Source: Clostridia bacterium (lineage in GTDB: Bacteria > Bacillota > Clostridia > Christensenellales > Aristaeellaceae). Taken from it: 32,000 nt of DNA. The translations under genes were made by a program, and so were the position numbers. The stretch is taken from the NCBI GenBank assembly GCA_045599485.1, contig JAZRWA010000038.1:7436-39435 (forward strand), given 5' to 3'. Under the pieces are notes generated by a model. That model did no database searches. It was not told where the DNA came from and saw only the letters and a list, made by a program, of their open reading frames with translations. Shown in pieces: positions 1,622-32,000 of this stretch (positions within the stretch are counted from its first letter, which is position 1; each line of letters starts with the position of its first letter).

Positions 1622-2323
1622 ATGCCGCTGATTGCTTTGACGCCCAGCTGGGATACCCAGAATGAGCATTTTTATGTTCCCAATGATTATGTGACCGCCG
1701 TGCAGGCGGCGGGCGGTGTGCCCATGGTGTGCTCCTTTGCCGATTCACAGGAAATGGCCGATGAAATGATGGCGCATGCCGATGCGCTGCTGCTGACGGG
1801 CGGCGCCGATGTGGACCCTGCCGTTTACCATGAGGAAATGCTGCCCATCTGCGGTGAGCTGGCACCCATGCGCGACAAGATGGAGCAGATGCTCATCCGT
1901 GCCGCGCTGAAATACAACCGTCCCATGCTCGGCATCTGCCGCGGACTGCAGATGGTCAATGCCGCGCTGGGCGGCACGCTGTATCAGGACATTGCGGAGC
2001 AGTACGGCAAGCAGGTGCTGCATCCCCGCAGTGACCGCCCCCGTGACGGCGTACACAACATGAGCATTGCCGCCGGCTCCATGCTGGAAGCCGCTTACGG
2101 CTGCCGTGAGGTGATGGTCAACAGCCGTCACCATCAGGCCTGCAAGGTGCCCGCGCCCGGTCTCAAGGTGGTGGCTACGGCCGAAGATGGTTTGATCGAA
2201 GGCCTGGAGAGCACCTCCGGCACGCCCATCCTTTGCGTGCAGTGGCATCCCGAATCCATGCGGGCGGCCATTCCCGTGCACATGGCCGTGTTCAACTGGA
2301 TCGTGCATGAGGCTTCCCGATGA
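1622..2323 (+). CDS. gamma-glutamyl-gamma-aminobutyrate hydrolase family protein (class I glutamine amidotransferase-like, peptidase C26)
   Basis: 233 aa ORF with the nucleophile elbow LGICRGLQ and the VQWHPE His motif typical of the PuuD/C26 family. Good RBS. Ends in TGA. Confidence 0.8.
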   Translation: MPLIALTPSWDTQNEHFYVPNDYVTAVQAAGGVPMVCSFADSQEMADEMMAHADALLLTGGADVDPAVYHEEMLPICGELAPMRDKMEQMLIRAALKYNRPMLGICRGLQMVNAALGGTLYQDIAEQYGKQVLHPRSDRPRDGVHNMSIAAGSMLEAAYGCREVMVNSRHHQACKVPAPGLKVVATAEDGLIEGLESTSGTPILCVQWHPESMRAAIPVHMAVFNWIVHEASR

Positions 2324-3018
2324 ACCGAGTGGTCCTGATTGCCGATCTGCACGGCAATCTGCCCGCGCTGGAGGCATTGGAGCAGGATCTGAACCGCCGG
2401 GGGCTGAAGGAGATCTGGTGCCTTGGCGACATCGTGGGCAAGGGTCCTTCCTCTCCATAGACCTTTGACTGGGCCATGGCACACTGCTCGGTGCTGCTGC
2501 GCGGCAACTGGGATGAAGGCATCGGCAAAAAGCTGTTCCCCGCCGATCAGTTCTATTATGATCAGCTGGGACCGGAACGCATGAAAAAGCTGCTCGAGCT
2601 GCCGCAGGAGCATCACACCGTGACCGGCAACAAGCGGGTACGCCTACTGCACGGCCGCCCCATCATGCCGTCCCTCCTTTCCGCCCATGACCCTGCTGAC
2701 AAGCTGATGTGGCTGTTCAAGCCGCAATATGACATTGTGGGCTATGCGGACATCCATCACCCCGAGCTGCGTCCCTTCCGTGACGGCAAGATCATTTTCA
2801 GCATCGGCAGCGTCGGCAACGCTTTAAGCTCGCTGCCCTGCGTGCAGTACAGCATCCTCAGTTGGGAGGAAAACGGCCTGGCAGACATCGCCTTCTGCTT
2901 CGTTCCCTATGACAACGCCCGAGCAGTGCGGGAAGCCGAAGCCGTTGAACTGCCCCGCAGGGACGCCTGGATTCAGGAAGTGACCACCGGCGTTTACGGC
3001 CGTGCCAAATCCACCTGA
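2320..3018 (+). CDS. metallophosphoesterase family protein (YfcE/MJ0936-like) with one in-frame TAG at codon 47
   Basis: The ATG at 2320 overlaps the upstream TGA (ATGA). The frame reads MNRVVLIADLHGNLPALEALEQDLNRRGLKEIWCLGDIVGKGPSSP-TAG-TFDWAMAHCSVLLRGNWDEG... and continues as track ORF 2476..3018 in the same frame. The DxHG and GD motifs lie before the TAG and the GNxD-type motif lies after it. Ends in TGA. Confidence 0.75.
2458..2460 (+). other. in-frame TAG codon (candidate sense/readthrough codon) in the metallophosphoesterase
   Basis: Context is cca TAG acc. Same frame as ATG 2320 and ORF 2476..3018 (all positions are 1 mod 3). Confidence 0.8.
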
Positions 3019-4187: not shown

Positions 4188-5483
4188 TCAGCGGCTTTTG
4201 TGCGTTCTGATGCGGGCTTCGCTGCCTTGGTCGCTCGGTTCATAGTACACATGATCGCGGACCTCGTCGGGCAGATACTGCTGCTCCACCCAGTGCCCGG
4301 GAAAATCATGCGGATACAGATAGCCTTTGCCGCTCTACAGGCGTTCCGCCCCCGCGTAATGGGTATCCCGCAGCGGCACAGGCACATCGCCCGAGGCTTT
4401 TTCGGCATCCGCCATGGCGGCATCAATGGCACAGACAACGCTGTTGCTTTTGGGGCTTTCGCAGACAGCAATGATCGCCTGGGCGATGGAGAGCCGTGCT
4501 TCGGGCATGCCGACCAATTCCAAGGCTTCACCGGCCGCCACGGCCTGCAGCATGGCTGCCGGGTTAGCGAGCCCCACATCCTCGCTGGCGTGGGCGATCA
4601 CGCGCCGCACGATCATCCGCGGATCGACCCCCGCATAGATGAGCCTTGCAAACCAGAACAGGGCGGCATCGCTGTCCGAGCCGCGAAGGCTTTTGCAGAA
4701 AGCCGACAACATATCATAATACAGGCTGTCATCACAGCGGATGACGGGCTTCTGGATGCTTTCCTACGCCGTTTCAAGGGTGATGCGGATGCCATTGCGC
4801 CCCGTGGGCGTGGTCAGTGCCGCCAGCTCCAGGGCATTGAGCGCCATGCGGACATCGCCGTTGGACACGTTGACAAAATGCTGCAGGGCATCCTCGTCCA
4901 GCTGCACATTCATTTCACCAAGTCCGCGATCCTTGTCCTTCAGGGCGGAGAGCAGAATGGCACGCATATTATCCTGCGTCAGGGGACGGAAGGCAAACAG
5001 CCTGCAGCGGCTGACGATAGCGGGCGTCATAGCCACCATGGGGTTTTCGGTGGTGGAGCCGATAAAGCGGATGATGCCCTCCTCGATGGCGGGCAGCACG
5101 CTGTCGGACTGCGCCTTGCTCCAGCGATGACACTCATCCAACAGAAGATAGGTCGCCTGACCGTACATGGCACGGCGTTCCCTGGCTTCCTACAGCACCT
5201 TGCGCACATCCGCCACGCCGGAGGTGACGGCGTTGAGCCGCACGAAGGCCGAACGCGTCTGCGCGGCGATGACATGCGCCAGCGTGGTCTTGCCGCAGCC
5301 GGGAGGCCCCCAGAAAATGCTGCTGGTCAGCCGGTCCGCCTCCACAGCGCGGCGAAGCAGCTTGCCGGGAGCCAGCAGATGCTCCTGGCCGAAAAACTCA
5401 TCGAGGCTGCGAGCCCGCATGCGCTCTGCCAACGGGGTGTTCTTTTTGATGTTATCCTGTTCCAGTGCATCCAGTAAGCTCAT
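4188..5483 (-). CDS. rarA: replication-associated recombination protein A (AAA+ ATPase, MgsA/RarA/WRNIP1 family) with three in-frame TAG codons
   Basis: Track ORFs 5190..5483, 4764..5168 and 4335..4712, plus an unlisted tail, are all in one frame of 432 codons. The pieces are: ...GPPGCGKTTLAHVIA...VRKVL-TAG-EARERRAMYGQATYLLLDECHRWSKAQSD...ITLETA-TAG-ESIQKPVIRCDDSLYYDMLSAFCKSLRGSD...HYAGAERL-TAG-SGKGYLYPHDFPGHWVEQQYLPDEV...THKSR-TGA. Walker A, Walker B (LLLDECHRW), sensor and C-terminal MgsA motifs are all present in order. Confidence 0.85.
4335..4337 (-). other. in-frame TAG codon 3 in rarA
   Basis: Minus strand ctg TAG agc. Same frame. It is followed by 48 more codons (SGKGYLYPHDFPGHW...) that match the conserved RarA C-terminus, then TGA at 4188..4190. 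Confidence 0.85.
4764..4766 (-). other. in-frame TAG codon 2 in rarA
   Basis: Minus strand gcg TAG gaa. Same frame as start 5483. Confidence 0.85.
5190..5192 (-). other. in-frame TAG codon 1 in rarA
   Basis: Minus strand ctg TAG gaa. Its offset from start 5483 is a multiple of 3. Confidence 0.85.
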
Positions 5484-6247
5484 GATTCATCCTCTACGGT
5501 CAGGTGCGCCACGCAGCCGTTTTTGCCCCATGTCCACAGGTGACTGCGGCTTCCGACGGCGCATTCCATGTGCAGCATGGCAATGCCGTCATCCACCATG
5601 TGCCGCTTGGAATCATTGAGACGCAGGGTATGGTGACCGTAATTCATGTGCCAGGGCTGGGAGTTGACCGCAGAAGGGGCCACGCGCACCGCCTCCGCCG
5701 CCTGATATGCCCAGTTGGGCCACTGTTCGGGCGGTGTGCCGCACATGCGCTGCAGTGGATGACGCTTGCGGATGGGCGCGTCGGGATTTTCGGGCACCCC
5801 CACGGGAATGACGGCGACGATCTTTTCCCCCGCTTCGCACAGCGGCCTGACCTTGGCCTTTTTATAGGTACCGGCCACCCAGCAGGTCGCAAGACCCATG
5901 GCAGCGGCTTCCAGCACAAACGCTTCACCGCTCATGCCGGCGTACAGCAGTCCGAACGGATCGTTCTTTTTTCGCAGGACGACCGCGCATTTGCCGGTGC
6001 CCTCAATGCGTCCCACAAACGGCAGACCCGAGAAAAAGCCCTTGGGGCAATCCATCAGCACGATGCGGGTGCCGGGCATGGAGACCGCCGCCGCTGTTTT
6101 TTTAAGTGCCTCCAGCTGTTCCTCATCGGGGGAAGAAGCATAGGCGCGGCAGCTGCAGCGGTGTTTTAAGGACTGCATCCAGCGTTCCCGCTGTTCCTGC
6201 GTGAAAAAACCGTTCAGCAGGCAGCCATCATCAATCTTTGATCTCAT
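5480..6247 (-). CDS. nitroreductase family protein
   Basis: 255 aa ORF containing the SAVNSQPW motif and a C-terminal fold typical of nitroreductases. Its stop overlaps the rarA start (ATGA). The start is uncertain: M1 at 6247 overlaps the upstream gene by 17 nt, and an internal Met (MQSLKH) is possible. Confidence 0.65.
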   Translation of the reverse strand: MRSKIDDGCLLNGFFTQEQRERWMQSLKHRCSCRAYASSPDEEQLEALKKTAAAVSMPGTRIVLMDCPKGFFSGLPFVGRIEGTGKCAVVLRKKNDPFGLLYAGMSGEAFVLEAAAMGLATCWVAGTYKKAKVRPLCEAGEKIVAVIPVGVPENPDAPIRKRHPLQRMCGTPPEQWPNWAYQAAEAVRVAPSAVNSQPWHMNYGHHTLRLNDSKRHMVDDGIAMLHMECAVGSRSHLWTWGKNGCVAHLTVEDES

Positions 6248-8119: not shown

Positions 8120-8184
8120 AAAAAAGCAGACAAAGAAGTCCGTTTTCTTTGTTATATTTATTTTTATACGGTATAGATGGAGGG

Positions 8185-9513
8185 ATGACCGTGCACGACA
8201 TCCAAGCGCTGAGCGGGCACGCCGATGCCATCAACGAGCTGCTGGCCCGTTACGGCGTTAAATTCGGCATCTACAAAAACGGCGTATTCAAAGAACAGCT
8301 GTTCCCCTTTGACGCCATTCCGCGCGTCATTGAGGCAGAGGATTTTGCCGTTCTCGAAAAAGGTCTCAAGCAGCGTGTCACAGCGCTCAATGCCTTCATC
8401 GCCGATATCTACGGTGAAAAGAAGATCATCCGGGACAAAGTCGTTCCCGAAGAATTTGTGTTCGGCAGCCCGGGGTACCTTTTGCAGTGCGAGGGACTGA
8501 AGCCCCCCAAGGGCATCTGGTCCCACATCAGCGGCATCGACCTGGTGCAGGCCAAGGATGGCAGCTGGTACATTCTGGAGGATAATCTTCGTGTGCCCTC
8601 CGGTGCCTCCTACCCCATGATCGCCCGTGAGCTCAGCCGCCGCGCCGCGCCCCGCACCTTCCAGAACAATGCCGTGGCCGAAAACCGCGATTATGCCGAA
8701 CTGCTCAAGGCAACCATGGACCATGTCAACACCGGCGGCATCAATGTGATCCTCACTCCCGGCCGTTACAACGCCGCCTATTTTGAGCACAGCTATCTGG
8801 CGGAAAAGACCGGCGCCCGGCTGGCCAGCGGCAGCGAGCTGACGGTGGAGGACGGCCGCCTGTACTTCATCGGCTACACCGGCAAAAAAGAGCCCGTCGG
8901 CACGGTGTACCGCCGCATTTCCGATGATTTCCTTGATCCCATGAATTTCCGCGCGGATTCGCTCATCGGCATTCCGCACATCTTTGACGCCTTCCGCTCC
9001 GGCAATGTGGCGCTGATGAACGCCCCTGGCAACGGCGTGGCGGATGACAAGGGCATCTACTATTTTGTGCCCAAAATGGTCCGTTATTATCTGAACGAGG
9101 AACCCATTCTGCAAAATGCCCCCACCTATCTGCCCTTCTATGACGAGGACATGAAATATGTGCTCGATCACTTTGACACGCTGGTGCTCAAGGATGTAGC
9201 AGAAGCCGGCGGCTACGGCGTGGTGTTTGGCAGCAAGATGACGGCACAGCAGAAGGAAGACTTTATCGCCCTGCTCAAAAAGGACCCCCGCCGCTTCATC
9301 GCCCAGGAGGTCATCGACTTCCGCGATCTGGACATCATTGAAAACGGCGAAGCCGTTCCCCGCAAGGCCGATTTGCGCGCCTTTGTGCTGATGGGCAGTG
9401 AGCCCATGGTATGGAAAAGCGGCCTGACTCGTTTCTCCCGCAATCCCGATTCCTTTATCGTCAACAGTTCTCAGGGAGGAGGCTTTAAGGATACATGGGT
9501 ATTATCTCGCTGA
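8185..9513 (+). CDS. circularly permuted type 2 ATP-grasp protein (DUF404/DUF407 family)
   Basis: Track ORF 8149..9513. The AT-rich first 12 codons are probably leader. GGAGGG directly abuts ATG 8185, so GTG 8191 is an alternative start. Family hallmark SGIDLVQAKDGSWYILEDNLRVPSGASYPMIAR is present. Ends in TGA. Confidence 0.8.
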   Translation: MTVHDIQALSGHADAINELLARYGVKFGIYKNGVFKEQLFPFDAIPRVIEAEDFAVLEKGLKQRVTALNAFIADIYGEKKIIRDKVVPEEFVFGSPGYLLQCEGLKPPKGIWSHISGIDLVQAKDGSWYILEDNLRVPSGASYPMIARELSRRAAPRTFQNNAVAENRDYAELLKATMDHVNTGGINVILTPGRYNAAYFEHSYLAEKTGARLASGSELTVEDGRLYFIGYTGKKEPVGTVYRRISDDFLDPMNFRADSLIGIPHIFDAFRSGNVALMNAPGNGVADDKGIYYFVPKMVRYYLNEEPILQNAPTYLPFYDEDMKYVLDHFDTLVLKDVAEAGGYGVVFGSKMTAQQKEDFIALLKKDPRRFIAQEVIDFRDLDIIENGEAVPRKADLRAFVLMGSEPMVWKSGLTRFSRNPDSFIVNSSQGGGFKDTWVLSR

Positions 9514-10157
9514 TCAACGCCGACAAGCTGTACTGGCTTGGGCGCTATACCGAACGTGTATATACCACCTTGCGGCTCTTTGCGCAAAGCTTTGACAAGC
9601 TGATCGACACCGACCAGCTGGCGTATAACAGCTTTTGCGCCGCGGTGGAGATCCCCGCCATCTACACCTCGGGCGAGGATTTTGTGGAGCGTTATCTGTT
9701 TGACCCCGACGATCCCAACTCCGTGCTGTCCAACCTGACCCGTGCCTTTGACAACGCCGTCACCCTGCGTGAAGAGATCGGCAGCGAATGCGTCAGCTAC
9801 ATTCAGCTGGCCATCTACGCCATCAACAAGGCACACGGCAGCCAAAGCCTGCTCGTGGACCTGCAGCATGTGATCGACCACATTCTTTCCTTCTGGGGAC
9901 TGGCGGATGACCTGATCCCCGATGAAAATGTGCGCAACATCATCAAGACCGGCAAGCGTGTGGAGCGGCTCGACCTGTATGCCCGCCTGCACCAGTCCCG
10001 TGAGGAGCTGCAGCGCGAGCTGTACCGTCTGACCGACCGCATCACCCGCACCAGTCTTTCCTACAATGTGGAGCATCTGTCTCTTTTGAAAATACTGGTC
10101 AATCTGAACGATATACCGTATAATGATATTGTGGAGCAGGTAGAAGGCCTGATCTGA
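9495..10157 (+). CDS. alpha-E domain-containing protein (DUF403)
   Basis: 220 aa, with N-terminal ADKLYWLGRYTERVYTTLRLF matching the alpha-E signature (YWlGRY.ER). It overlaps the upstream gene by 19 nt. Confidence 0.75.
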   Translation: MGIISLINADKLYWLGRYTERVYTTLRLFAQSFDKLIDTDQLAYNSFCAAVEIPAIYTSGEDFVERYLFDPDDPNSVLSNLTRAFDNAVTLREEIGSECVSYIQLAIYAINKAHGSQSLLVDLQHVIDHILSFWGLADDLIPDENVRNIIKTGKRVERLDLYARLHQSREELQRELYRLTDRITRTSLSYNVEHLSLLKILVNLNDIPYNDIVEQVEGLI

Positions 10158-10190
10158 AATCAAGCATCTGAAAAGGGGAGGAAATGTGTG

Positions 10191-10973
10191 ATGATCCGTC
10201 GGCTGGGGTTTTCTTTTCAGCTGGGGCTCACCTTTTCCTCCTCTGTTTGCTGTCACCGTTTTACCCTGCGGTGCATGCCGCAGACCACCCCGCTGCAGCA
10301 GCCGGAGGACATCAGCATCACCCTGGAGCCCAACTGTCCGTACTGGATCGGCCGTGATTACGCCGGTCTGAAGCTGCTCGGCTTCGCCCGGGAAGCCCAC
10401 ACAGCACTGAAGCTGACCGTCAGCGGCATCGTGGCGAACGAGGACCCTTCAAAGGGACTTTCCCTTCTTGCAGGAGAGCCGTTGGGGGCTTTTTCCCTGC
10501 AGACGCCGCTGACTATGCCCGGCCCCGCCCTGCGGACGCTTCATGGCATGCTGCCTGTTTTTTCCGACGCGGAGGCGACAGCGCTGTCCATCATGGACTT
10601 GCTGGCGGAGCGTTTTTGCTACACGCCGGGGGCCACCGAAAGCGGCACCGCCGCCGAGGCCGCTGCCCAGGCCATGCAGGGCGTATGTCAGGATGAAGCG
10701 CACATCATGCTGTCGCTTCTTCGCCTGCGCGGCATTCCCTGCCGTTATGTGGTGGGCTTTATGGCAGGCGAAGGGGCCTCCCATGCCTGGGTGGATGTGC
10801 TCCTGCGTGACAGCTGGCAAAGCTTTGACCCCACCAATCACCGCAGGATTACCGCCGATTACATCCGTGTTTCCCACGGACTGGACGCCAATGACTGCCC
10901 CTTGAACCGCGGGCTGTTTACCGGCACTGCCGTACAGGATGGCAGCAGTACAGCGCAAGTATGGGAGGTTTGA
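10191..10973 (+). CDS. transglutaminase-like cysteine protease family protein
   Basis: Carries the GVCQDEAHIMLSLLRLRGIPCRYVVGF...SHAWVDV...SFDPTN Cys-His-Asp arrangement of transglutaminase cores. RBS GGGGAGG. GTG 10188 is an alternative start. Confidence 0.75.
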   Translation: MIRRLGFSFQLGLTFSSSVCCHRFTLRCMPQTTPLQQPEDISITLEPNCPYWIGRDYAGLKLLGFAREAHTALKLTVSGIVANEDPSKGLSLLAGEPLGAFSLQTPLTMPGPALRTLHGMLPVFSDAEATALSIMDLLAERFCYTPGATESGTAAEAAAQAMQGVCQDEAHIMLSLLRLRGIPCRYVVGFMAGEGASHAWVDVLLRDSWQSFDPTNHRRITADYIRVSHGLDANDCPLNRGLFTGTAVQDGSSTAQVWEV

Positions 10974-10976
10974 CTG

Positions 10977-11939
10977 ATGATCCGCAGCACCCTTATCACC
11001 GTCACCGAAGTCGGACTGCCGGTGGATGAAAAACTGTATATCCGCAAAAACCGCATTGAGCCCGAAAGCGGCTCCAACGGCCGCCGCATCAGCATTGTGA
11101 CCGGCATCCACGGCGATGAGCTGGAAGGACAATATGTCTGCTGGCAGGTGCAGCAGCGCATTGCCGCCCACCCCGAATGCCTGCTGGGGACCGTGGACAT
11201 CTATCCTGCCATGAATCCCTTCGGCATCGAATCGGTCAGCCGCGGCATTCCCGCCTTTGATCTGGATATGAACCGCATCTTTCCGGGCAGCGAGGAAGGC
11301 GACATGAATGAGTATATCGCCTCCCGCATCGTGCATGATCTGGAAGGCAGCACGCTGGCGATCGATATTCATGCCTCCAACATTTACCTGACCGAGATCC
11401 CCCAGATCCGCATCAATGAGAACAGTGCCGAAAGGCTGGTGCCCATCGCGCAGAAGGCCAATGTGGATTTTATCTGGGTACACGGTGCCTCCACTGTGCT
11501 GGAAGCCACGCTCGCCCACAGCCTCAACAGCCGCGGTGTGGATACCCTGGTGGTGGAAATGGGCGTGGGCATGCGCATCACCAAGGAATACGGCGATCAG
11601 CTGACCGAAGGTATCTTCAGTCTGATGAAGGAACTGAATATCTGGAGTGGCGAAACAACGCCGGTCCGTACGCCCATCATCTCCTCCGACCCCAATGAAG
11701 TGGAATTTTTGAACGCCCCCGCCGCCGGCGTATTTGTCAAAACGCTGTCGCACGGCGCTATACTGAAAAAGGGGGATGAGATCGGCCTGATCATCGATCC
11801 CTTGAGCGGCAAAACGCTGTACCCTGTGCTTTCCCCCTGCAACGGCTGGCTGTTTACCGTACGTGAATACCCCATTGTCGATCAGGGATCGCTGATGGCA
11901 CGCATCCTAAAAAGGGAGATCGGAGGGCTGCCGCAATGA
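10977..11939 (+). CDS. succinylglutamate desuccinylase/aspartoacylase (AstE/AspA, M14-like) family protein, zinc ligands intact
   Basis: 320 aa with VTGIHGDELEG (HxxE), NRIFPG and AIDIHAS motifs. It starts 3 nt after the upstream stop. Confidence 0.75.
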   Translation: MIRSTLITVTEVGLPVDEKLYIRKNRIEPESGSNGRRISIVTGIHGDELEGQYVCWQVQQRIAAHPECLLGTVDIYPAMNPFGIESVSRGIPAFDLDMNRIFPGSEEGDMNEYIASRIVHDLEGSTLAIDIHASNIYLTEIPQIRINENSAERLVPIAQKANVDFIWVHGASTVLEATLAHSLNSRGVDTLVVEMGVGMRITKEYGDQLTEGIFSLMKELNIWSGETTPVRTPIISSDPNEVEFLNAPAAGVFVKTLSHGAILKKGDEIGLIIDPLSGKTLYPVLSPCNGWLFTVREYPIVDQGSLMARILKREIGGLPQ

Positions 11940-12868
11940 AAAAAGAGATCTTGTTTGAGATTCCCGGCATTTACCGGGACGCCTTCCGTGTGACCGGTTA
12001 CACCTTCGGCGAAGGAGAAAAAGCCCTGTGCATCGTGGGCAGCATGCGCGGCAACGAAAACCAGCAGCTGTACTGTGCCTCCCGTCTGGTGGCCCGGCTG
12101 AAACGGCTTGAAGAGGATGGCAGGCTGATCGAGGGACAGCAGATCCTGGTCATTCCCTGCGTCAACCCCTACTCCATCAATACCAAGCGCCGCTTCTGGT
12201 GCATTGACAACACCGATATCAACCGCATGTTTCCCGGCTATGACGCAGGCGAAACCACCCAGCGCATTGCCGCGGGCGTGTTTGAGCAGATCAAGGATTA
12301 CCGCTACGGCGTACAGTTTGCTTCCTTTTATATGCCCGGCGCGTTTGTGCCGCACATCCGCATGATGAAGACGGGCTACGAGGATCCGCAGCTGGCGGCT
12401 GAGTTTGGCTTGCCTTATGTGGTCGTGCAGCCGCCGCGTCCCTTTGACACCGCCACCCTCAACTACAACTGGCAGATCTGGGGCGTACACGGCTTCTCCC
12501 TTTACACCACCAACACCGCCCGCATTGATACCGAAAGCGCTCAGCAGGCGGAGGACGCCGTGCTGAACTTTATGTCCCGCCGGGGCATCATCCATTACCG
12601 TGCGCATGGCGGCTACCGTTCCGAGATCGTGCAGGGCGAGGACATGGTCAGCCTTCGTGCCGCGACCTCCGGCTTTCTGCAGTGCCTGGTCAAGCCCGGG
12701 CAGCGGGTGGAAAAGGGGCAATTGCTGGCCAACATCCTCGATCCCTACGAGGGTAGTATCCGTTCCGAGCTGCGTGCCCCCGTTTACGGCGTGGTCGCGT
12801 TTGCCGGCGATGAACCCATGACGTACGAAAACACCGCCGTGCTGAAGCTGATCCCCGAAGTGGAATAA
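11936..12868 (+). CDS. AstE/AspA (M14-like) family paralogue with degenerate metal-binding motifs
   Basis: 310 aa with 4-nt ATGA overlap on the upstream gene. It keeps NRMFPG. It has VGSMRGNENQ where the paralogue has TGIHGDELEG, and VQFASF where the paralogue has IDIHAS. Confidence 0.7.
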   Translation: MKKEILFEIPGIYRDAFRVTGYTFGEGEKALCIVGSMRGNENQQLYCASRLVARLKRLEEDGRLIEGQQILVIPCVNPYSINTKRRFWCIDNTDINRMFPGYDAGETTQRIAAGVFEQIKDYRYGVQFASFYMPGAFVPHIRMMKTGYEDPQLAAEFGLPYVVVQPPRPFDTATLNYNWQIWGVHGFSLYTTNTARIDTESAQQAEDAVLNFMSRRGIIHYRAHGGYRSEIVQGEDMVSLRAATSGFLQCLVKPGQRVEKGQLLANILDPYEGSIRSELRAPVYGVVAFAGDEPMTYENTAVLKLIPEVE

Positions 12869-12917: not shown

Positions 12918-15422
12918 TCAGCCCTCCGTTTTGCGGCTGCCGGGCTTTTTCAGGCTTTCGGCAACGGGCTTTTTGAGCAGATCATAATAGTAATCCACAT
13001 ACGCGGCAATGCTTTCCGCCGTATCCCAATCATCGAGCAGCGTCACATACCCCTGCAGTGAGGCAGCCTTCGCCCGCAATGCGCGGGAAGAGGCGCCGAT
13101 AAAGGTACGGCTCAGATAGCGGCTGTTTTTGGCATCCTGAATCAGGTTGGAGGCCGCCGCATTGCCGTCCAGGGCGATGATGACCGAAGGACGGCGCTTG
13201 AAGATCTCAAATGCGACACTCTTGTACACTCCCTGCGGGGAGGATTCGAGCGCCACCCGCACCTTGACACCGCTCTTTTGCAGGCGTATCCGTTCGGCTT
13301 CGCTGATCTGTGCCGGAACGAAGGCAAATACCGGCAGATCCGCCCCCGCCTTGTCCAGAATATAGCGCTCGTAACCGCCAAGAGACGGGCCGATGACCAC
13401 AAAGAATTTGCCGCTCCCGGCTCTTTTGAGCAGATCATCCAACAGTCGGCAATCCGCCTCCCGAAGGCGGGTACGGCGAACGGCGTTGTTGAAGCTGCCG
13501 CCCGCGAGCACCACCGGTACACGATCCTACGGCAGCGGAACGATCTGCGCCTTCAACGCATCGGCACTGGCAAGCCGCCCTGTATCAAACAACTGGATCG
13601 TTCCTGTATCCTGCAGGATGCGGTCACGGTAGAACGCCGCTTCCGTGCCCTCCGCGCACTGCGCACGAAAGGCGGTTTTTTTCTGTTCAAACGCCTGCAT
13701 GGACCCTTCGATGATCTCTTTTTCCGCCTGCCGCATGCGCAGCAGCTCCGCATCGGTCAATTCCAGCATACGCTCCAGTGAAAGCTGCTCATCGATGGAA
13801 TCGGTACCGTAAAGCGCGCCGCCATCGGTACCCTGCACGCAGTAGATGCCCGCGTTCAGATACTGCCGCAGCGGATGCCGGCTCAGCCGGGACAGATTGT
13901 TGAGGCGCACGTTGGAGGTGATCTGAAATTCCAGCACTGCCTGCCTGCGCCGCAGCAGTTCCAGCAGCGACCGACCCTTTTCGCTTTTCAGGTTGGCGGT
14001 GTAAAGGCCGTGACCGATGCGTACATGCGGGAAAGCCTGCCCCGGCAGCAGCGCTTTTTCGACTGAAAGCAGGCTGTTGAGCACGTTGTCGGGCAGGGCG
14101 TCGTTTTCGCCGGCGTGGAGACGCACCACAAAGGACGGATGCTCCCGGGCGATGCGCAGCACCGTGTTCATCACCGGCTGCAATTCCCGGATATCGTTCA
14201 TTTCCTCGCCCACAAAATCGCTGCCCGCCACATAGGGGCCGCCGGCGACCGCCCGCAGCACGCGCAGGTTTTCGTCATAGGGGTTTTCCGGCAGACCGCC
14301 GGTGCGCCCCATCATCAGGGGGATGCGCCGCAGCGCCGCCAGAAAGCGCAGCGTTACCCCGGTTTCCTCCGTCACGGCGGGCATGACAGCATGAATCTGC
14401 GCAAGCGTTTCCGGCGCTTCGGACGCCTTTACCAGCGCGGTATCGGAGATCTCGGCATAATGGACACCGCTGCGCCGATAGCTGCGGGCGACCCACAGCA
14501 GCGTATCCTGATACAGGGTATTTTTGCCGTAAACCGGGTGTTTTCGATCCGTTTCCATCTGTCTGAGGGCTGCGATGATGTCCGCATCAGGCAGGGAATC
14601 GATGTTTTTCAGCTCAATTCTGTCTTCCGCGGGCGTGCCCTTGGTGAATACATAACGGTACAGATACACCTTTTCCAGATCGGTAAACACCGCCTGGCCA
14701 TCCTTCAGCACCGCCAGCGAGGCCCGCACCCGCGGAATATTGTAGGCGCTGTGTTCATTCATCATCAGCGCGGCAAAATTGATGAAGGTGTTGTCATCAA
14801 ACAGCCGCTCCCGGTATTTGCCCTGAAGAGTGATATCGCCCAGTTTTTCCTCCGTGGCGCTTCTGCGGGTCTCCATCAGGCGCTGCTGCTCCTCCGAAAG
14901 ACGCAGTCCCAGCTTTTTGATATAATAATAGGGATAACGCAGCTGATGATGGATGCCCAGCGCGATGAGCAGATCGGGGCTGAGGTTGCCGCTGCGATGG
15001 CTGTGCAGATCGGAACGGAATTTCAATTCCTCACGGATGTAGGTCTTGACCAGCGTTTTATGCCGGTCCAGCTCGTACTCCTTGGTCTGGCTCATCAGCG
15101 TTTTGGCAATGGCGGGGATGGCCGCCCGGCGCTCGATCTGACCGTCGGGATAAATGTTGGCCACCTTGGTATCGGCAAGCCGCAGGATATACACCCGGCG
15201 GTTTTCGCCGTCCACATAGCACGGCACCTCGCCGCGGATCTGCTTCAGGCCGTTTTCATCAAAGCTGACCGGCAGACCGCACACCGCCGCAAGGTTGCTG
15301 ATCAGGTTGCCTGTGCCGTGGTTGGGCGTGCGCAGCACATAAAAGAGCCGTTCCCCTTCCATCATCAGCGACACGATGATATCTTTCTCTTTATCCAGAT
15401 ACAGCGTTCCGAATGGCTTCAT
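12918..15422 (-). CDS. adenosine/AMP deaminase-family (amidohydrolase) protein fused, across an in-frame TAG, to a C-terminal Rossmann-like (possibly SLOG/LOG-like) domain
   Basis: Track ORFs 13527..15527 and 12918..13514 are in the same frame (835 codons from MKPFGTLYL at 15422, GGAGGA RBS). Deaminase motifs present: SDLHSHRSG (HxH), RLHAGEN, RIGHGLY, VQGTDGGALYGTD. The junction reads ...KAQIVPLP-TAG-DRVPVVLAGGSFNN...VVIGPSLGGYERYILDKA...IIALDGNAAASNLIQDAK... Ends in TGA. Alternative reading: two genes, with the second starting at GTG 13514. Confidence 0.6.
13527..13529 (-). other. in-frame TAG at the deaminase / C-terminal-domain junction
   Basis: Minus strand ccg TAG gat. Both flanking ORFs share the frame (13529-13514 = 15 nt). 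Confidence 0.7.
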
Positions 15423-21856: not shown

Positions 21857-22777
21857 ATGAGTGAACCGCTTCTGAAGGTCGAAAACCTGGTACAGCACTT
21901 CCCCATCTCCCGCAGCTTTACCGTCAAAGCCGTCAACGGTGTCTCCTTCGACATCTATCCCGGCGAGACCTACGGTCTGGTGGGCGAGTCCGGCTCCGGC
22001 AAAACCACCATCGGCCGCAGCATCATCCGCCTGTATGACCCCACTGCCGGCAAGATCACCTTTGATGGTGCCGACATCACCGGCAAGCTGGATAACAGCA
22101 CCCGCACGCTGCTGCGCACCGAAATGCAGATGATCTTCCAGGACCCCATGGCCAGCCTCAACCCCCGCAAAAAGGTGGCCGATATCATTGGTGAAGGTCT
22201 GGATATTCATCACCGCGTCACCGGCAAAAAGGAGCGCGATGAGCTGATCGGCAGCCTGCTTAAAAAGGTCGGCCTCTCTCCCGAGCATGCCGAGCGTTAT
22301 CCCCACCAGTTCTCCGGCGGTCAGCGTCAGCGCGTCGGCATCGCCCGCGCCCTCATCATGAACCCCAAGCTGATCATCGCCGATGAGTGCATTTCCGCCC
22401 TGGACGTGTCCATTCAGGCGCAGGTCGTCAACCTGATGAAGGATATTCAGGATGAAACCGGCTGCGCCTACCTGTTCATCGCTCACGATCTGAGCATGGT
22501 CAAGTACATCTCCGACCGCATCGGCGTGCTGCATCTGGGCTACATGGTGGAATCCGGCACCAAGGAAGAGATCTTCTCCAATCCCATCCACCCCTACACC
22601 AAGTCCCTGCTGTCCGCCATCCCTCACCCCAATCCCGGCGTGGAAAAGAACCGCACCTCCGTCAGCTATGACTATGCCTCCAGCGGCATTGATTACGCCA
22701 AAGGCACCGAGCATAGCGCCGAGGGCACGCACAAGGTTCTCGCCACCGATGAGGAGTTTGCCGCCTGGACACGCTGA
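21857..22777 (+). CDS. oppF: oligopeptide ABC transporter ATP-binding protein
   Basis: Preferred start is [11 protein letters not shown] at 21857, just after the oppD TAA. Walker [29 protein letters not shown]. Confidence 0.85.
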
Positions 22778-22791
22778 AAGGTTCCATCACC

Positions 22792-23520
22792 ATGAAAAAG
22801 CTTCTTTCCATCCTGCTGCTGATGCTGCTTGCGCTGTCCCTGCTGCCCGTACAGGCGGAAGAGGCCCCCGCTTTCCCCGCCCGCGATCAGTTCATTCAGG
22901 ATATCATCGATCTGGCCGAGCAGAAGTTCACCGCCGCCAAGGGCAAAGCCCAGCGCGCCCATTATGCCGGCGATATCTATGTCTGCAAAAATTTCACGGT
23001 CTATCTGTTCAATCAGAACCGCGATAAGTACCGCATGGCGGAATATCCCGACACGCCCCTGGTCATTCCCGACAATCTCCCCAAGGATCAGTGCAAGCCC
23101 TATTCCTACGGCTTCCTGTGGAAGGATATCAGCGCCGCCGAGGGCAACCCCTTCTATGCAGCAGCCACCTTCCGCTATGATTCCTCGCTCAGCAAAAAGG
23201 AAAATCAAAAGCTGGCCCGCGAATTCATGAAGCAGGCGCAGAAGGGCGATTACTTCCAGATGTCCGCCAACTACTATTATGGCGTCGGCGCCCACAGCAT
23301 GATCTTTACCGCCGATTACGACCCCAAGACAGATACCGTCACCTGGTGCGACAGCAACATGAAGGGTCAAAGCAAAAACGGCATCCGCTACGGCTACGTA
23401 CAGTTCAACGCCAACAAAAAGATCGATTGGTTTGTGGATGCCTTCTGCCAGAAGACCCGCGGTGCCACCATTTACCGTCTGCGCGACGATATCATCTTCG
23501 CTGACCCCGCGATCAACTGA
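22792..23520 (+). CDS. secreted hypothetical protein with a Cys...His arrangement (possible papain-fold/NlpC-P60-like hydrolase; unverified)
   Basis: 242 aa with signal peptide MKKLLSILLLMLLALSLLPVQA. Contains GDIYVCKNFTVYLF and GVGAHSMIFTADYD. It starts 14 nt after oppF, so it is co-transcribed. Confidence 0.5.
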   Translation: MKKLLSILLLMLLALSLLPVQAEEAPAFPARDQFIQDIIDLAEQKFTAAKGKAQRAHYAGDIYVCKNFTVYLFNQNRDKYRMAEYPDTPLVIPDNLPKDQCKPYSYGFLWKDISAAEGNPFYAAATFRYDSSLSKKENQKLAREFMKQAQKGDYFQMSANYYYGVGAHSMIFTADYDPKTDTVTWCDSNMKGQSKNGIRYGYVQFNANKKIDWFVDAFCQKTRGATIYRLRDDIIFADPAIN

Positions 23521-23614: not shown

Positions 23615-23624
23615 AGGTACGACA

Positions 23625-23709
23625 ATTCCAAGGGGTGCTGGCTCTGCCGGCTGAGATGAACCAAGGTTCGAACCCTCAAACCTGATCCGGGTAATACCGG
23701 CGTAGGAAT
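23625..23709 (+). promoter_or_regulatory. TPP (THI-box) riboswitch aptamer
   Basis: attccaaGGGGTGCtgg...ggCTGAGAtgaa...ACCCtcaaACCTGATCCGGGTAATACCGGCGTAGGAAt matches the conserved THI element (GGGGUGC, CUGAGA, ACCUGAUC.GG.UAAU.CC.GCGUAGGAA). P1 is formed by attcc/ggaat. Confidence 0.9.
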
Positions 23710-23732
23710 GCGAGTAAAGTGCTTTTGATGTG

Positions 23733-24695: not shown

Positions 24696-27092
24696 TCAGA
24701 CAATTTTTCCTTTCAGCGTGGTCGTATTGCTGACCTTCTTGAAAAAGAGCATATACACGATCATGGCCAGCACAACCATCGCTGCCGCCAGACCCGCTAC
24801 GTGGACATTGCCCGTAAACAGGCTTCCGAACTGATTGATCATCAGTGCGATCGCGTAGGCAAAGCCGCACTGATAGGTGATGGCAAAGGCCGTCCATTTA
24901 CGGTTGTTCATCTCGCGCCGGATAGCGCCGATGGCGGCAAAGCAGGGCGCGCACAGCAGGTTGAACACCAGGAAGGAATAGCCCGTCACGCTGCTGAAGG
25001 CCTGAGCGAGTGCCTGCCAGGCAGTCAGGTCGCCGCTGCCATAGAGAATGCCCAGCGTGCCGACAATGTTTTCCTTGGCCACAAGACCTGTGATGGAAGC
25101 CACTGCCGCCTGCCAGTTGCCCCAGCCCAGCGGAGCAAAGATCCAGGCGATGCAGTTCCCGATGAACGCCAGAATGGAAAGGTGCAGTTCCTCCTCCCCC
25201 AGCATACGGAAACCTTCCTCCGTGAAGCCAAAGAAGCTGGTAAACCACACCACGATGGTGGACAGCAGAATGATCGTTCCCGCCTTTTTGATAAAGGACC
25301 AGCCGCGTTCCCACATGGAGCGAAGCACATTGCCCGGCGTCGGCCAATGGTAGGCGGGCAGCTCCATCACAAAGGGCGCGGGGTCGCCGGCAAACATTCT
25401 GGTCTTCTTCAGCATGATGCCGGAGATGATGATGGCCGCCAGACCGATAAAGTACGCGGAGGTGGCCACCCAGGCAGCTCCGCCAAAGACGGCGCCGGCG
25501 ATCATGGCAATAAACGGCACCTTGGCGCCGCAGGGAATAAAGGTGGTGGTCATGATCGTCATGCGGCGGTCGCGTTCATTTTCAATGGTACGGCTGGCCA
25601 TGACGCCGGGTACGCCGCAGCCGGTGCCGATCAGCATCGGGATAAATGATTTACCGGAAAGGCCAAACTTGCGGAATACACGGTCCAGAACGAAAGCAAT
25701 ACGCGCCATGTACCCGCAGGCCTCCAGGAAAGCCAGCAGCAGGAACAGCACCAGCATCTGCGGAACAAAGCCCAGCACAGCGCCAACGCCTGCCACAATA
25801 CCATCCAGAATCAGTCCCTTGAGTACTTCGGATGTGTTCAGCGCGTCCAGACCGCGTTCTACCAGCACCGGAATACCGGGCACCCAAACGCCATAGTCCG
25901 CCGGGTCGGGCTCCTCCCCCATCTGTTCCAGCGTGTTCTTTGCATTCTCATAGTCCTGCAGGGTTGCCGTCTCCACCATCTGCTCCAGCGTTTCCTCATC
26001 CTCCACGACATAGGGGAATGCATCGGTCGGGGCGGTGCCGTTCGCTGTTACATAGGCGTCATAGCCGCCCGCAATGGCAGAGGCCTCGGCATAGGCTTCG
26101 GCTGCCTCTTCATAGCCGCCGTCGCTGCCGATGTGGAAGCCGTCTCCAAAAATGTTATCGTTCGTAAAGTCGGTCAGCATAGCGCCCGGGCCCACCATGG
26201 CGATCCAATACACCAAAAACATGATGATCGCAAAAATGGGCAGACCCAGCCAGCGGTTGGTCACCACTTGGTCGATCTTATCCGAAACCGACAGTTTTCC
26301 CTTATTTTTCTTTTGATAGCACTGCTGAATGACCTTGGCAATATAAAGATATCGTTCGTTGGTGATGATGCTTTCCGCGTCGTCGTCCAGTTCCTTTTCC
26401 GCTGCCGCGATGTCGCCTTCAATGTGCAGCAGCGTCTTTTCGGGGATGGACAGTGCCGCCATCACCTTTTCATCGCGTTCAAACACCTTGATCGCGTACC
26501 ACCGCTGCTGCTCCTCGGGCATATCATGCACAGCCGCTTCCTCAATGTGTGCCAGCGCGTGCTCGACAGGGCCGGAAAAGGTGTGCATGGGAACGGTTCT
26601 GGTGCTCTTCGCCGCGGCGATCGCCGCTTCCGCTGCTTCCATGACGCCCATCCCCTTCAGGGCGGAAATCTCCACAACCTTGCAGGCCAGCTTTGCTGAA
26701 AGTTCCTCCGTGCGGATCCGGTCGCCGTTTTTCTGTACGATGTCCATCATGTTGAGGACGATCACCACGGGGATCCCCAGTTCCGTCAGCAGCGTGGTCA
26801 GGTACAGGTTGCGTTCCAGATTGGTGCCGTCAATGATGTTCAGAATCACGTCCGGCCGTTCCCCCAGCAGATAGTTGCGGGCGACCACTTCCTCCAGCGT
26901 GTAGGGAGAAAGCGAATAGATGCCGGGCAGGTCGGTAATGATCACATCATCGTGCTTTTTAAGGCGTCCTTCCTTTTTTTCGACGGTCACGCCGGGCCAG
27001 TTGCCCACAAACTGATTGGAGCCGGTCAACGCGTTGAACAGCGTGGTCTTGCCGCTGTTCGGGTTTCCGGCCAGTGCAATTCGTATACTCAT
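24696..27092 (-). CDS. feoB: ferrous iron transport protein B
   Basis: 798 aa with the N-terminal G domain (GNPNSGKTTLFNALTG, DLPG, NMMD) followed by a polytopic membrane domain. Confidence 0.9.
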   Translation of the reverse strand: MSIRIALAGNPNSGKTTLFNALTGSNQFVGNWPGVTVEKKEGRLKKHDDVIITDLPGIYSLSPYTLEEVVARNYLLGERPDVILNIIDGTNLERNLYLTTLLTELGIPVVIVLNMMDIVQKNGDRIRTEELSAKLACKVVEISALKGMGVMEAAEAAIAAAKSTRTVPMHTFSGPVEHALAHIEEAAVHDMPEEQQRWYAIKVFERDEKVMAALSIPEKTLLHIEGDIAAAEKELDDDAESIITNERYLYIAKVIQQCYQKKNKGKLSVSDKIDQVVTNRWLGLPIFAIIMFLVYWIAMVGPGAMLTDFTNDNIFGDGFHIGSDGGYEEAAEAYAEASAIAGGYDAYVTANGTAPTDAFPYVVEDEETLEQMVETATLQDYENAKNTLEQMGEEPDPADYGVWVPGIPVLVERGLDALNTSEVLKGLILDGIVAGVGAVLGFVPQMLVLFLLLAFLEACGYMARIAFVLDRVFRKFGLSGKSFIPMLIGTGCGVPGVMASRTIENERDRRMTIMTTTFIPCGAKVPFIAMIAGAVFGGAAWVATSAYFIGLAAIIISGIMLKKTRMFAGDPAPFVMELPAYHWPTPGNVLRSMWERGWSFIKKAGTIILLSTIVVWFTSFFGFTEEGFRMLGEEELHLSILAFIGNCIAWIFAPLGWGNWQAAVASITGLVAKENIVGTLGILYGSGDLTAWQALAQAFSSVTGYSFLVFNLLCAPCFAAIGAIRREMNNRKWTAFAITYQCGFAYAIALMINQFGSLFTGNVHVAGLAAAMVVLAMIVYMLFFKKVSNTTTLKGKIV

Positions 27093-31168: not shown

Positions 31169-32000
31169 TTATCTTTTTTTATTTGCACCCGGTCGGGAGC
31201 GCGTCAGCCGCTCCTCATGCCCGCGCGGGGGCTGCACCAGGCAGCCCGGCCCGTAACCGATCAGGTCTTCCCGCCCGCAGTTGCGCAGGGCCTCGCGGAT
31301 GAGCGCAAAATTCTACGGTTTTTTCCATTGCAGCAGCGCACGCTGCATATCCTTTTCTTTCTGTGTGGTAGGTACATATACCGGCTTCATCGTTCTCGGG
31401 TCAATGCCGGTATAATACATACAGGTGCTCAGCGTGCCCGGTGTCGGATAAAAATCCTGCACCTGCTCGGGCTGCACGCCCTTACGCTTCAGGTACAACG
31501 CCAATTCGACAGCATCCCGCATGGTACTGCCGGGATGGCTGCTCATCAGATAGGGCACCAAAAACTGCTTCATGCCCAGCTGACGGTTCACCTGTTCATA
31601 CTGGCGGCAGAACTCCTCGTACACCGCGTTGCGGGGTTTACCCATACACTGCAGGGTGTGATCGGCAATGTGCTCCGGCGCTACCTTCAATTGTCCGCTG
31701 ATGTGGTGCGCGCAGAGCTCCCGCATTACCCGCTGACGATCCTTGTCCGCCAGAATGTAGTCAAACCGCAAGCCCGATCGGATAAACACCTTTTTGATGC
31801 CCGGAATTTGCCGCATCCGCCTCAGTGTGTGCAAAAAATCCTCATGACTGACTTCCATGTTGGGACAGGGCTCGGGGAACAGACACTGCCGGTTCGGGCA
31901 ACAGCCATGCTGCAGCTGTTTTTTGCAAGCAGGCTTGCGGAAATTCGCCGTCGGTCCGCCCACATCGTGGATGTACCCCTTGAAGTCGGGGAAGGTGGTC
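31169..32000 (-). CDS. ygiQ: YgiQ family radical SAM protein (UPF0313), C-terminal part, with one in-frame TAG (5' end beyond the right window edge)
   Basis: Track ORF 31313..31963 (..[16 protein letters not shown]...VAPEHI...LMSSHPGST...ALLQWKKP) stops at a TAG. The same frame continues [31 protein letters not shown]... for 47 codons to TAA at 31169..31171. I translated this base by base and it resembles the conserved YgiQ C-terminal tail. Confidence 0.8.
31313..31315 (-). other. in-frame TAG codon in ygiQ
   Basis: Minus strand ccg TAG aat. It lies 144 nt (48 codons) upstream of the TAA in the same frame. Confidence 0.8.

What the first reader, a model, noticed from the sequence alone, without database searches (positions are those of the whole stretch)
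4188..5483. rarA carries three amber codons yet is otherwise a perfect 432-codon reading frame
The TAGs lie at 5190..5192, 4764..4766 and 4335..4337. They sit after the Walker A region, between the AAA+ lid and the MgsA C-terminal domain, and just before the conserved GYxYPHD tail. All canonical motifs remain in order and in frame, and the gene ends in TGA. Three nonsense codons of the same type in one gene, with no indel, is the strongest single-gene argument against pseudogenisation.
Basis: seen in the sequence. Interest (0 to 1): 0.8.

Follow-up and report, generated by a model that had tools for sequence, protein, structure and literature searches.

The report
Gut bacterium reads TAG as sense
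In this uncultured horse-gut Clostridia lineage the stop codon TAG sits inside intact, strongly conserved genes such as rarA and never ends a gene in the DNA examined, so it is almost certainly read as an amino acid (most likely glutamate), a change of the genetic code that the papers I checked do not report for bacteria.

Summary
rarA (5483..4188, minus strand) is one 431-residue frame ending in TGA, with in-frame TAG at codons 98, 240 and 383. It is not a pseudogene: against sister assemblies (about 88-92% nucleotide identity) dN/dS is 0.04 overall and 0.02-0.09 in every inter-TAG segment.

TAG-98 is present in all eight other assemblies that cover it. Where the window has TAG-240 and TAG-383, the sisters have GAG and GAA.

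Three more window genes carry an internal TAG: a metallophosphoesterase, an adenosine-deaminase fusion and YgiQ. The sisters add five sites.

Of nine polymorphic sites, the partner is a Glu codon at six, CAG at two and Pro at one. None of about 39 lineage genes ends in TAG, against 10.6% in relatives. The nearest outgroup (83% identity) ends rarA itself with TAG.

Best reading: a recent, clade-restricted reassignment of TAG to a sense codon, most likely Glu, with Gln second. The expected tRNA(CUA) and loss of RF1 could not be examined. The window-specific TAGs rest on one assembly. Recent screens and reviews report only UGA stop reassignments in bacteria, so this looks new.

The parts
4188..5483 (-). 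rarA/mgsA coding sequence: 431 residues plus a TGA stop, with three in-frame TAG codons
   Evidence: (MgsA_C 209.8 bits, AAA_assoc_2, AAA). dN/dS against sisters is 0.039-0.045.
5190..5192 (-). TAG, rarA codon 98; fixed in the lineage
   Evidence: TAG in the window and in L001, L002, L082-L087. The nearest outgroups have D, E or Q at this column and distant ones mostly K.
4764..4766 (-). TAG, rarA codon 240; window-specific
   Evidence: GAG in L001, L002, L084 and L086. The column is Glu in 76 of 81 loci.
4335..4337 (-). TAG, rarA codon 383; window-specific
   Evidence: GAA in L001, L002 and L084. Outgroups have D, E or G.
2320..3018 (+). Metallophosphoesterase gene with one in-frame TAG
   Evidence: The Metallophos_2 match covers residues 3-180 and spans the TAG. 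Sisters encode an uninterrupted 233-residue protein.
2458..2460 (+). TAG, metallophosphoesterase codon 47
   Evidence: GAG in L002 and L084.
12918..15422 (-). Adenosine-deaminase fusion gene (834 residues) with one in-frame TAG
   Evidence: Uninterrupted homologues of 831-888 residues span the junction. Sister proteins P0412 and P0416 have 832 and 834 residues.
13527..13529 (-). TAG, deaminase-fusion codon 632
   Evidence: CAG in L084 and L098, Glu in P0416. Glu is the most common residue among distant homologues, and the 63%-identical L095 has E.
14889..14891 (-). GAG (deaminase-fusion codon 178) that is TAG in the sister MAG
   Evidence: L098 (JAKSQG010000025.1) has TAG here, and NCBI splits the gene into MCQ2453498 and MCQ2453499. 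P0416 has Q.
12924..12926 (-). GAG (deaminase-fusion codon 833) that is TAG in sister L084
   Evidence: L084 reads ...ACG TAG GGG TGA where the window reads ...ACG GAG GGC TGA.
31169..32000 (-). YgiQ-family radical SAM gene, C-terminal part; it runs off the window and has one in-frame TAG
   Evidence: The DUF3362 match covers residues 178-271 and spans the TAG. Homologues continue past the TAG.
31313..31315 (-). TAG in YgiQ; fixed in the lineage
   Evidence: TAG at the same codon in L088, L089 and L092. The column is variable in homologues (K 72, E 18, A 9, D 8).
25956..25958 (-). CAG (FeoB codon 379) that is TAG in sisters
   Evidence: TAG in L088 and L099. The gene call in L099 is split into 378 and 409 residues.

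Best explanation
In this narrow lineage of uncultured gut Clostridia (the window genome plus the 'Horse_feces223' MAG GCA_024404275.1 and matching ENA and Logan assemblies), UAG is no longer a terminator. It is a rare sense codon, about 1% of the presumed Glu codons, and most likely encodes glutamate. rarA is therefore translated as one 431-residue RarA/MgsA protein with Glu at positions 98, 240 and 383.

Shown:
- Internal TAGs in several unrelated housekeeping genes that are under strong purifying selection.
- Two TAG sites conserved across the sublineages.
- TAG interchanging mostly with GAG or GAA between close relatives.
- Termination only at TGA or TAA in the DNA examined.

Inferred, not seen:
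- A tRNA with anticodon CUA is charged with Glu. One anticodon change from tRNA-Glu(CUC) would give it. Many Bacillota lack GlnRS and use a non-discriminating GluRS that already tolerates variation at anticodon position 36 (from my own knowledge of GluRS, not tested here).
- RF1 (prfA) has been lost or disabled, leaving RF2 to read UAA and UGA.
- New TAG codons then arise as neutral synonymous GAG-to-TAG changes, which fits their being few and mostly lineage-specific.
For: (1) rarA has three TAGs and no indel. dN/dS is 0.039 against L002, and 0.02-0.09 in each of the four segments.

(2) TAG-98 is shared by the window and eight other assemblies from different samples. The YgiQ TAG is shared by four assemblies. 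Divergence between these lineages is dS of about 0.47.

(3) There are 11 distinct internal TAG sites in about 45 kb of lineage sequence, in RarA, a metallophosphoesterase, the deaminase fusion (3 sites), YgiQ, FeoB and a HAD hydrolase (2 sites). Family matches or uninterrupted homologues span the TAGs of the window genes and the HAD sites; the FeoB site rests on the window's uninterrupted gene.

(4) At the polymorphic sites the partner codon is GAG five times, GAA once, CAG twice and Pro once.
- A mutation-only nonsense spectrum gives P = 0.002-0.015 for so many GAG partners, and P = 7e-4 to 5e-3 for all eight being E or Q codons.
- A simple rate model favours Glu over Gln by at least 125-fold.
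- rarA column 240 is Glu in 76 of 81 loci.

(5) No genuine TAG terminator occurs in about 39 lineage genes, against 98 of 922 (10.6%) in related loci; P = 0.012.

(6) Clade boundary: the nearest outgroup (P0001/L100, 83% identity) has GAC, GAG and GAT at the three columns and ends rarA with TAG. No other of the 81 loci has an internal TAG.

(7) There is no shared or unusually stable RNA structure downstream of the TAGs; z-scores range from -1.15 to +1.10.
Against: - No tRNA gene of any kind was found in the window or in most sister loci scanned, so the decoding tRNA is unseen; L098 and L099 were not scanned.
- The presence or absence of RF1 is unknown.
- There is no proteomic evidence.
- Two partner codons are CAG, and two sites vary among E, Q and TAG within the lineage, so Gln is not excluded.
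- One fixed sister TAG aligns with Pro, and the YgiQ column is mostly Lys.
- Four of the six window TAGs (rarA-240, rarA-383, metallophosphoesterase-47, deaminase-632) occur only in one NCBI assembly.
- The absence of TAG terminators rests on about 39 genes only.
- Two large screens of bacterial assemblies list no such code. A codon this rare may simply fall below their thresholds.
Confidence: 0.68

Rival explanations
1. TAG is a sense codon but encodes glutamine. A tRNA-Gln(CUG) mutated to CUA would decode it, as in classical supE suppressors, TAG-recoded phages and many eukaryotes.
For: CAG is the partner codon at deaminase-632 and FeoB-379, and P0416 has Q at deaminase-178. Q occurs in near relatives at rarA column 98 and in 4 of 81 loci at column 240. 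From general knowledge, Gln is the most frequent natural outcome of UAG reassignment.
Against: If TAG meant Gln, synonymous CAG-TAG transitions should dominate. Instead 6 of 8 E/Q-type partners are Glu codons. The likelihood ratio is at least 125 against Gln even if an ambiguous site is moved to the Q side. It would also require E-to-Q replacements at a column that is 94% Glu, in a gene with dN/dS of 0.04.
Confidence: 0.14
2. UAG has no dedicated decoder. It is read inefficiently or ambiguously by near-cognate tRNAs because RF1 is weak or absent, or it is both stop and sense depending on context.
For: TAG codons are rare, 6 in 9,582 codons. No tRNA(CUA) has been seen. Partner residues are not uniform: E, Q and P.
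Against: Three such codons in one gene would multiply the losses, yet rarA is under strong constraint. TAG sites persist across dS of about 0.47 and new ones keep accumulating on both branches, whereas deleterious codons should be purged. No genuine TAG terminator was found. No context signal or structure is shared; the excess of purines after TAG is not significant, P = 0.09.
Confidence: 0.08
3. TAG encodes pyrrolysine or another non-canonical residue genome-wide, as proposed for some archaea.
For: UAG is the Pyl codon. A genome-wide UAG-to-Pyl code is reported for archaea. The YgiQ column is Lys-rich.
Against: No AAG partner occurs among nine polymorphic sites, and Glu codons predominate. 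None of the TAG-bearing genes is a methylamine methyltransferase. No pyl gene appears among the called genes in the roughly 45 kb examined. A bulky Pyl at a 94%-Glu column in a constrained protein is unlikely.
Confidence: 0.05
4. The TAGs are real stops or artefacts: pseudogenes, split genes, assembly or sequencing errors, or contamination by a recoded phage or ciliate.
For: NCBI annotation treats these genes as split or leaves them uncalled. Four window TAGs are seen in a single assembly.
Against: - dN/dS is 0.02-0.09 downstream of each TAG.
- No frameshift occurs in any affected gene.
- TAG-98 is identical in nine assemblies and the YgiQ TAG in four.
- The last rarA fragment has no ATG, and a split between Walker A and Walker B would not give a working AAA+ ATPase.
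- The partner spectrum is unlike random nonsense mutation.
- The context is bacterial and chromosomal: ArgS, an Opp transporter, FeoB and a TPP riboswitch. TAA is used as a terminator and never occurs in frame.
Confidence: 0.03

Closest known systems
UGA stop-codon reassignments in bacteria (table 4, UGA to Trp in Mycoplasmatales, some endosymbionts and Eggerthellaceae; table 25, UGA to Gly in Absconditabacteria/Gracilibacteria)
   Same: A stop codon becomes a sense codon throughout a bacterial clade. In-frame 'stops' appear in conserved genes, standard annotation splits them or calls them pseudogenes, and the expected machinery is a new tRNA plus loss of the matching release factor.
   Different: The codon is UAG, not UGA, so the factor expected to be lost is RF1 rather than RF2. 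The genome region is GC-rich (57%), not AT-rich, and shows no sign of the reduction typical of those lineages. The new codon is still very rare. In the papers read, every bacterial stop reassignment described involves UGA.
UAG (and UAA) to Glu in eukaryotic nuclear codes (peritrich ciliates, table 30; Blastocrithidia nonstop, UAR to Glu)
   Same: The same codon-to-amino-acid change as inferred here. Blastocrithidia is cited; the peritrich code is from my own knowledge.
   Different: Those are eukaryotes with eRF1. UAA is reassigned there as well, whereas here TAA remains a terminator (8 of 26 complete window genes). The origin is independent.
TAG-recoded bacteriophages (code 15, TAG to Gln; crAss-like, Lak and other gut phages)
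   Same: TAG is read as sense in a gut ecosystem, with a suppressor tRNA(CUA) as the mechanism (papers listed).
   Different: Here the recoded genes are chromosomal housekeeping genes of a bacterium, with no phage genes among the called genes. The inferred residue is Glu rather than Gln. [quoted passage not shown]
Pyrrolysine decoding of UAG (Pyl bacteria and archaea; the archaeal 'all TAG = Pyl' code)
   Same: UAG is read as an amino acid, and TAG is depleted as a terminator.
   Different: The TAG sites here interchange with Glu and Gln codons. The affected genes are not methyltransferases, and no pyl genes were seen in the sequence available.

Membership tests
RarA/MgsA (replication-associated recombination protein A) | AAA+ module with Walker A and Walker B, followed by the AAA_assoc_2 lid and the MgsA_C domain, all in one polypeptide | tested here: met
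   Pfam finds AAA 56-161, AAA_assoc_2 190-267 (75 bits) and MgsA_C 268-428 (210 bits). The protein is 71-83% identical over its full length to proteins that sources name RarA. This holds only if the three TAGs are read through.
Stop-codon reassignment (alternative genetic code) | In-frame occurrences of the codon in several unrelated conserved genes, with homology continuing on both sides | tested here: met
   Six sites in four window genes, and 11 sites in seven genes across the lineage.
Stop-codon reassignment (alternative genetic code) | Purifying selection downstream of the codon | tested here: met
   rarA dN/dS is 0.02-0.09 in every segment. In YgiQ there are 95 synonymous against 11 non-synonymous differences.
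Stop-codon reassignment (alternative genetic code) | The codon is no longer used as a terminator | tested here: met
   0 of about 39 genes, against 10.6% in relatives; P = 0.012. The sample is small.
Stop-codon reassignment (alternative genetic code) | Phylogenetic coherence: shared by a clade and absent from outgroups | tested here: met
   Present in the window lineage, in L082/L083 and in the sister group. Absent from 79 other loci. The nearest outgroup ends rarA with TAG.
Stop-codon reassignment (alternative genetic code) | A consistent amino acid at aligned columns | tested here: inconclusive
   Glu partners at 6 of 9 polymorphic sites, Gln at 2 and Pro at 1. Glu is favoured over Gln by at least 125-fold under a simple model, but the number of sites is small.
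Stop-codon reassignment (alternative genetic code) | A cognate tRNA (anticodon CUA) in the genome | not testable with these tools
   No tRNA genes in the window or the scanned sister loci. The rest of the genome could not be fetched.
Stop-codon reassignment (alternative genetic code) | Loss or alteration of the matching release factor (RF1, prfA) | not testable with these tools
   prfA is not in the roughly 45 kb available, and no whole-genome access was possible.
Pyrrolysine system | pylT and pylSBCD genes, with UAG in methylamine methyltransferase genes | tested here: not met
   None of the called genes in the window or sister loci is a pyl gene or a methyltransferase, and the TAG-bearing genes are RarA, a phosphoesterase, a deaminase, YgiQ, FeoB and a HAD hydrolase. 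Whole-genome absence was not tested.
Phage TAG-to-Gln recoding (code 15) | A phage or prophage genome context with TAG in phage genes | tested here: not met
   The window encodes ArgS, RarA, the Opp ABC transporter, malic enzyme and FeoB, and carries a TPP riboswitch. No phage gene families were seen.

The most novel reading that the evidence does not exclude
This is the first bacterial lineage found to have reassigned the amber codon UAG to a canonical amino acid (glutamate), caught at an early stage. RF1 has been lost, a tRNA-Glu(CUA) has been gained, only about 1% of Glu codons have converted, and new TAG codons are still accumulating independently in sister species.
Probability: 0.6. Interest if true: 0.92.

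Novelty: new variant of a known kind. Interest (0 to 1): 0.88.

Why it matters
- **A new kind of bacterial code change.** Every bacterial stop-codon reassignment in the papers read involves UGA. A natural UAG-to-Glu code in a free-living-type, GC-rich gut bacterium would break that pattern.
- **An early stage.** It would give a young example on which to test the codon-capture and ambiguous-intermediate models of how codes change.
- **A natural counterpart of engineered strains.** It would be a natural analogue of the RF1-free, amber-free E. coli strains built for genetic-code expansion.
- **A possible tool.** It could supply a natural Glu-accepting amber suppressor tRNA and its synthetase.
- **Annotation.** Standard pipelines currently split or drop these genes. 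In the sister MAG the deaminase is annotated as two proteins, and YgiQ and the HAD gene are left uncalled, so completeness and pseudogene estimates for this clade are wrong.
- **Phages.** It changes what to expect of phage-host code compatibility in the gut.

Tried and rejected
- **tRNA search.** ARAGORN found no tRNA in the window, and none with anticodon CUA in loci L001-L092.
- **Fetching the window's own contig.** It is an NCBI contig of 45,159 nt. Exact look-ups of two window proteins found nothing on record, and a look-up of the window's 97-residue rarA fragment returned only short Logan contigs of a related strain, so the gene-position index seems not to hold that contig.
- **Metagenome scan with the TAG-98 context.** 0 hits in the JGI metagenomes.
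- **Second metagenome scan with the deaminase fusion protein.** Only relatives of 57-63% identity, none with a TAG.
- **Recoding signal (SECIS- or PYLIS-like).** Downstream folds are no better than shuffles.
- **Base after TAG.** 10 of 11 are purines, but P = 0.09 given the base composition after Glu codons.
- **TAG at 28870-28872.** It lies upstream of the SH3-domain gene's start and is conserved in the sisters, but the stretch is intergenic, so I did not count it.
- **YgiQ column.** Too variable to identify the residue.
- **Split-gene reading of rarA.** Rejected: the last fragment has no ATG, and the split would fall inside the AAA+ core.
- **A-to-I mRNA editing of TAG.** Considered and rejected from my own knowledge. 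The TadA-type motif UACG is absent from the six window TAG contexts, and editing would give Trp, which fits none of the aligned columns.
- **Ciliate or phage contamination.** Rejected on gene content, the use of TAA as a stop and the riboswitch.

Full report
**Observation.** On the minus strand, ATG at 5483 and TGA at 4190..4188 bound a 432-codon frame. Its only interruptions are TAG at 5190-5192, 4764-4766 and 4335-4337, which are codons 98, 240 and 383. Pfam places AAA (56-161), AAA_assoc_2 (190-267) and MgsA_C (268-428, 210 bits) across the three TAGs. Full-length homologues of 71-83% identity align without any indel. The finding is as described. One small correction: the named relatives are Christensenellales-type Clostridia rather than clearly Oscillospirales.

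**The gene is alive.** A 318-residue hit of 95% identity (P0118) led to contig L001, where the same gene is called as 97 plus 318 residues. A genome scan then found L002, from the MAG 'Clostridia bacterium Horse_feces223'. Both are about 90% identical to the window in DNA and syntenic with it.
- Between the window and these sisters, rarA has about 105 synonymous and about 17 non-synonymous differences.
- dN/dS is 0.039-0.045 overall. It is 0.02-0.09 in each of the four segments bounded by the TAGs.

**The TAGs are not errors, and one is old.** Exact-sequence look-ups of the 97-residue N-terminal fragment found it in further ENA and Logan assemblies from other samples.
- All eight other assemblies that cover codon 98 carry TAG there.
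- Those that cover the sites have GAG at codon 240 (four assemblies) and GAA at codon 383 (three).
- TAG-98 therefore predates a split with dS of about 0.47, while TAG-240 and TAG-383 arose in the window's branch from Glu codons.
- The window-specific fragments exist only in one NCBI assembly, on a 45,159-nt contig. Those sites lack independent confirmation.

**It is not only rarA.** I re-read the window with TAG open. About 27 real-looking genes (GC3 of 0.7-0.8) all end in TGA or TAA. Three more genes have an internal TAG:
- A metallophosphoesterase (2458-2460), which is GAG in the sisters.
- An 834-residue adenosine-deaminase fusion (13527-13529). Uninterrupted homologues of 831-888 residues show it is one gene.
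- YgiQ (31313-31315). The TAG sits at the same codon in three sister assemblies.

Further sister contigs (L084, L088, L092, L098, L099) add five sites:
- Deaminase codon 178: TAG in the sister MAG, GAG in the window.
- Deaminase codon 833: TAG GGG TGA in L084, against GAG GGC TGA in the window.
- FeoB codon 379: TAG in two assemblies, CAG in the window.
- HAD hydrolase codon 135: TAG in one sister assembly, GAG in another.
- HAD hydrolase codon 146: TAG in the sisters, Pro in the window genome's orthologue.

NCBI's annotation of the sister MAG splits or omits exactly these genes.

**Which amino acid.** The table lists the 11 TAG sites by what they pair with.

| Class | Sites | Count |
|---|---|---|
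| Partner GAG | rarA-240, metallophosphoesterase-47, deaminase-178, deaminase-833, HAD-135 | 5 |
| Partner GAA | rarA-383 | 1 |
| Partner CAG | deaminase-632, FeoB-379 | 2 |
| Partner Pro | HAD-146 | 1 |
| Fixed, no partner | rarA-98, YgiQ | 2 |

- No partner is AAG, TGG, TAY, TTG or TCG.
- Random nonsense mutation predicts 14-22% GAG. Getting at least 5 GAG among 8 one-step pairs has P = 0.002-0.015, and all eight being E or Q codons has P = 7e-4 to 5e-3.
- If TAG meant Gln, synonymous CAG-TAG transitions should dominate. A simple model (kappa 2-4, E/Q acceptance 0.1-0.3) favours Glu over Gln by at least 125-fold, even after moving one ambiguous site to the Q side.
- rarA column 240 is Glu in 76 of 81 loci.
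- Two sites, deaminase-178 and deaminase-632, vary among E, Q and TAG within the lineage. With so few sites, Gln stays a live rival.

**Termination and clade boundary.**
- No genuine TAG terminator occurs in about 39 lineage genes, against 98 of 922 in related loci (P = 0.012).
- The nearest outgroup (P0001/L100, 83% identity) has GAC, GAG and GAT at the three rarA columns and ends rarA itself with TAG.
- None of the other 79 related loci has an internal TAG.
- The change therefore happened between the 83% outgroup and the common ancestor of the window and its sisters.

**Mechanism.**
- Shown: UAG is translated through, it is not used to terminate in the DNA available, and it behaves as a synonym of GAG.
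- Inferred: a tRNA(CUA) charged with Glu, and loss of RF1 with RF2 covering UAA and UGA.
- Neither could be checked. The window and the sister loci scanned hold no tRNA, and the rest of the genomes could not be fetched.
- No SECIS- or PYLIS-like structure follows the TAGs.

**Comparison with what is known.** In the papers read, every bacterial stop reassignment described involves UGA:
- Shulgina and Eddy 2021 (PMC8629427).
- A 2026 screen of 2.7 million assemblies (bioRxiv 10.64898/2026.04.02.715157).
- gTranslate.
- A 2026 Eggerthellaceae study (PMC13462651).

UAG reassignment is known in phages (to Gln), in archaea (to Pyl) and in eukaryotes (to Gln or Glu). Targeted searches found no report of a bacterial UAG-to-Glu or UAG-to-Gln code. 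With only about 6 TAG codons per 9,600 codons, this lineage may fall below the thresholds of such screens.

**Verdict.** The best explanation is a young, clade-restricted reassignment of UAG to a sense codon, most likely Glu. I put confidence that TAG is read as sense at about 0.9, and confidence in the full statement, with Glu, at about 0.68. It is a new variant of a known kind of phenomenon and of high interest.

Noticed in passing
window 23621-23725 (+), upstream of the gene at 23798-24439: A TPP riboswitch (RF00059, 78 bits) sits in front of a Thia_YuaJ-type thiamine transporter gene. This is an ordinary arrangement, but it confirms a bacterial chromosomal context.
   Followed up: partly
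window 12918-15422 (-): The 834-residue protein has an unknown N-terminal region of about 300 residues, an adenosine-deaminase domain and a C-terminal 'AGGSFNN' domain with no Pfam match. The C-terminal domain is rare: only 108 hits among 1.84 billion cluster representatives. It has a weak PADLOC match to the CARF_ADA deaminase model, so it might be a signalling or defence-type deaminase.
   Followed up: partly
window 8122-12868 (+): A five-gene block: circularly permuted ATP-grasp, Alpha-E, transglutaminase-core, and two AstE/AspA-like genes. The Pfam calls come from the sister locus L084. It looks like a peptide-modification neighbourhood and is conserved in the sisters.
   Followed up: no
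L088 4695-5366 and 6333-8333; L098 9191-11695: In the deposited sister MAG (GCA_024404275.1) the genes with internal TAG are either left without a protein product (HAD, YgiQ) or split in two (deaminase: MCQ2453498 plus MCQ2453499). The public annotation of this clade is therefore systematically wrong.
   Followed up: yes
window 28870-28872 (-), upstream of the SH3-domain gene's start: A TAG in the same frame as the downstream gene is conserved in three sister assemblies. It lies in the stretch between the GNAT gene and the SH3-domain gene. I treated it as non-coding and did not test whether the protein starts further upstream.
   Followed up: partly
L082 and L083 (Logan SRR21150938, SRR21150819), matching window 5109-6214: These contigs encode a 97-residue RarA fragment identical to the window's, yet are only 92% identical in DNA. 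They point to a third sublineage that also carries TAG-98.
   Followed up: partly
window 22753-23520 (+) and 27841-28986 (-), compared with sisters: Between the window and its sisters, terminators switch between TGA and TAA (for example TGA in the window and TAA in the sisters at 23518). They never switch to TAG, which fits RF2-only termination.
   Followed up: partly
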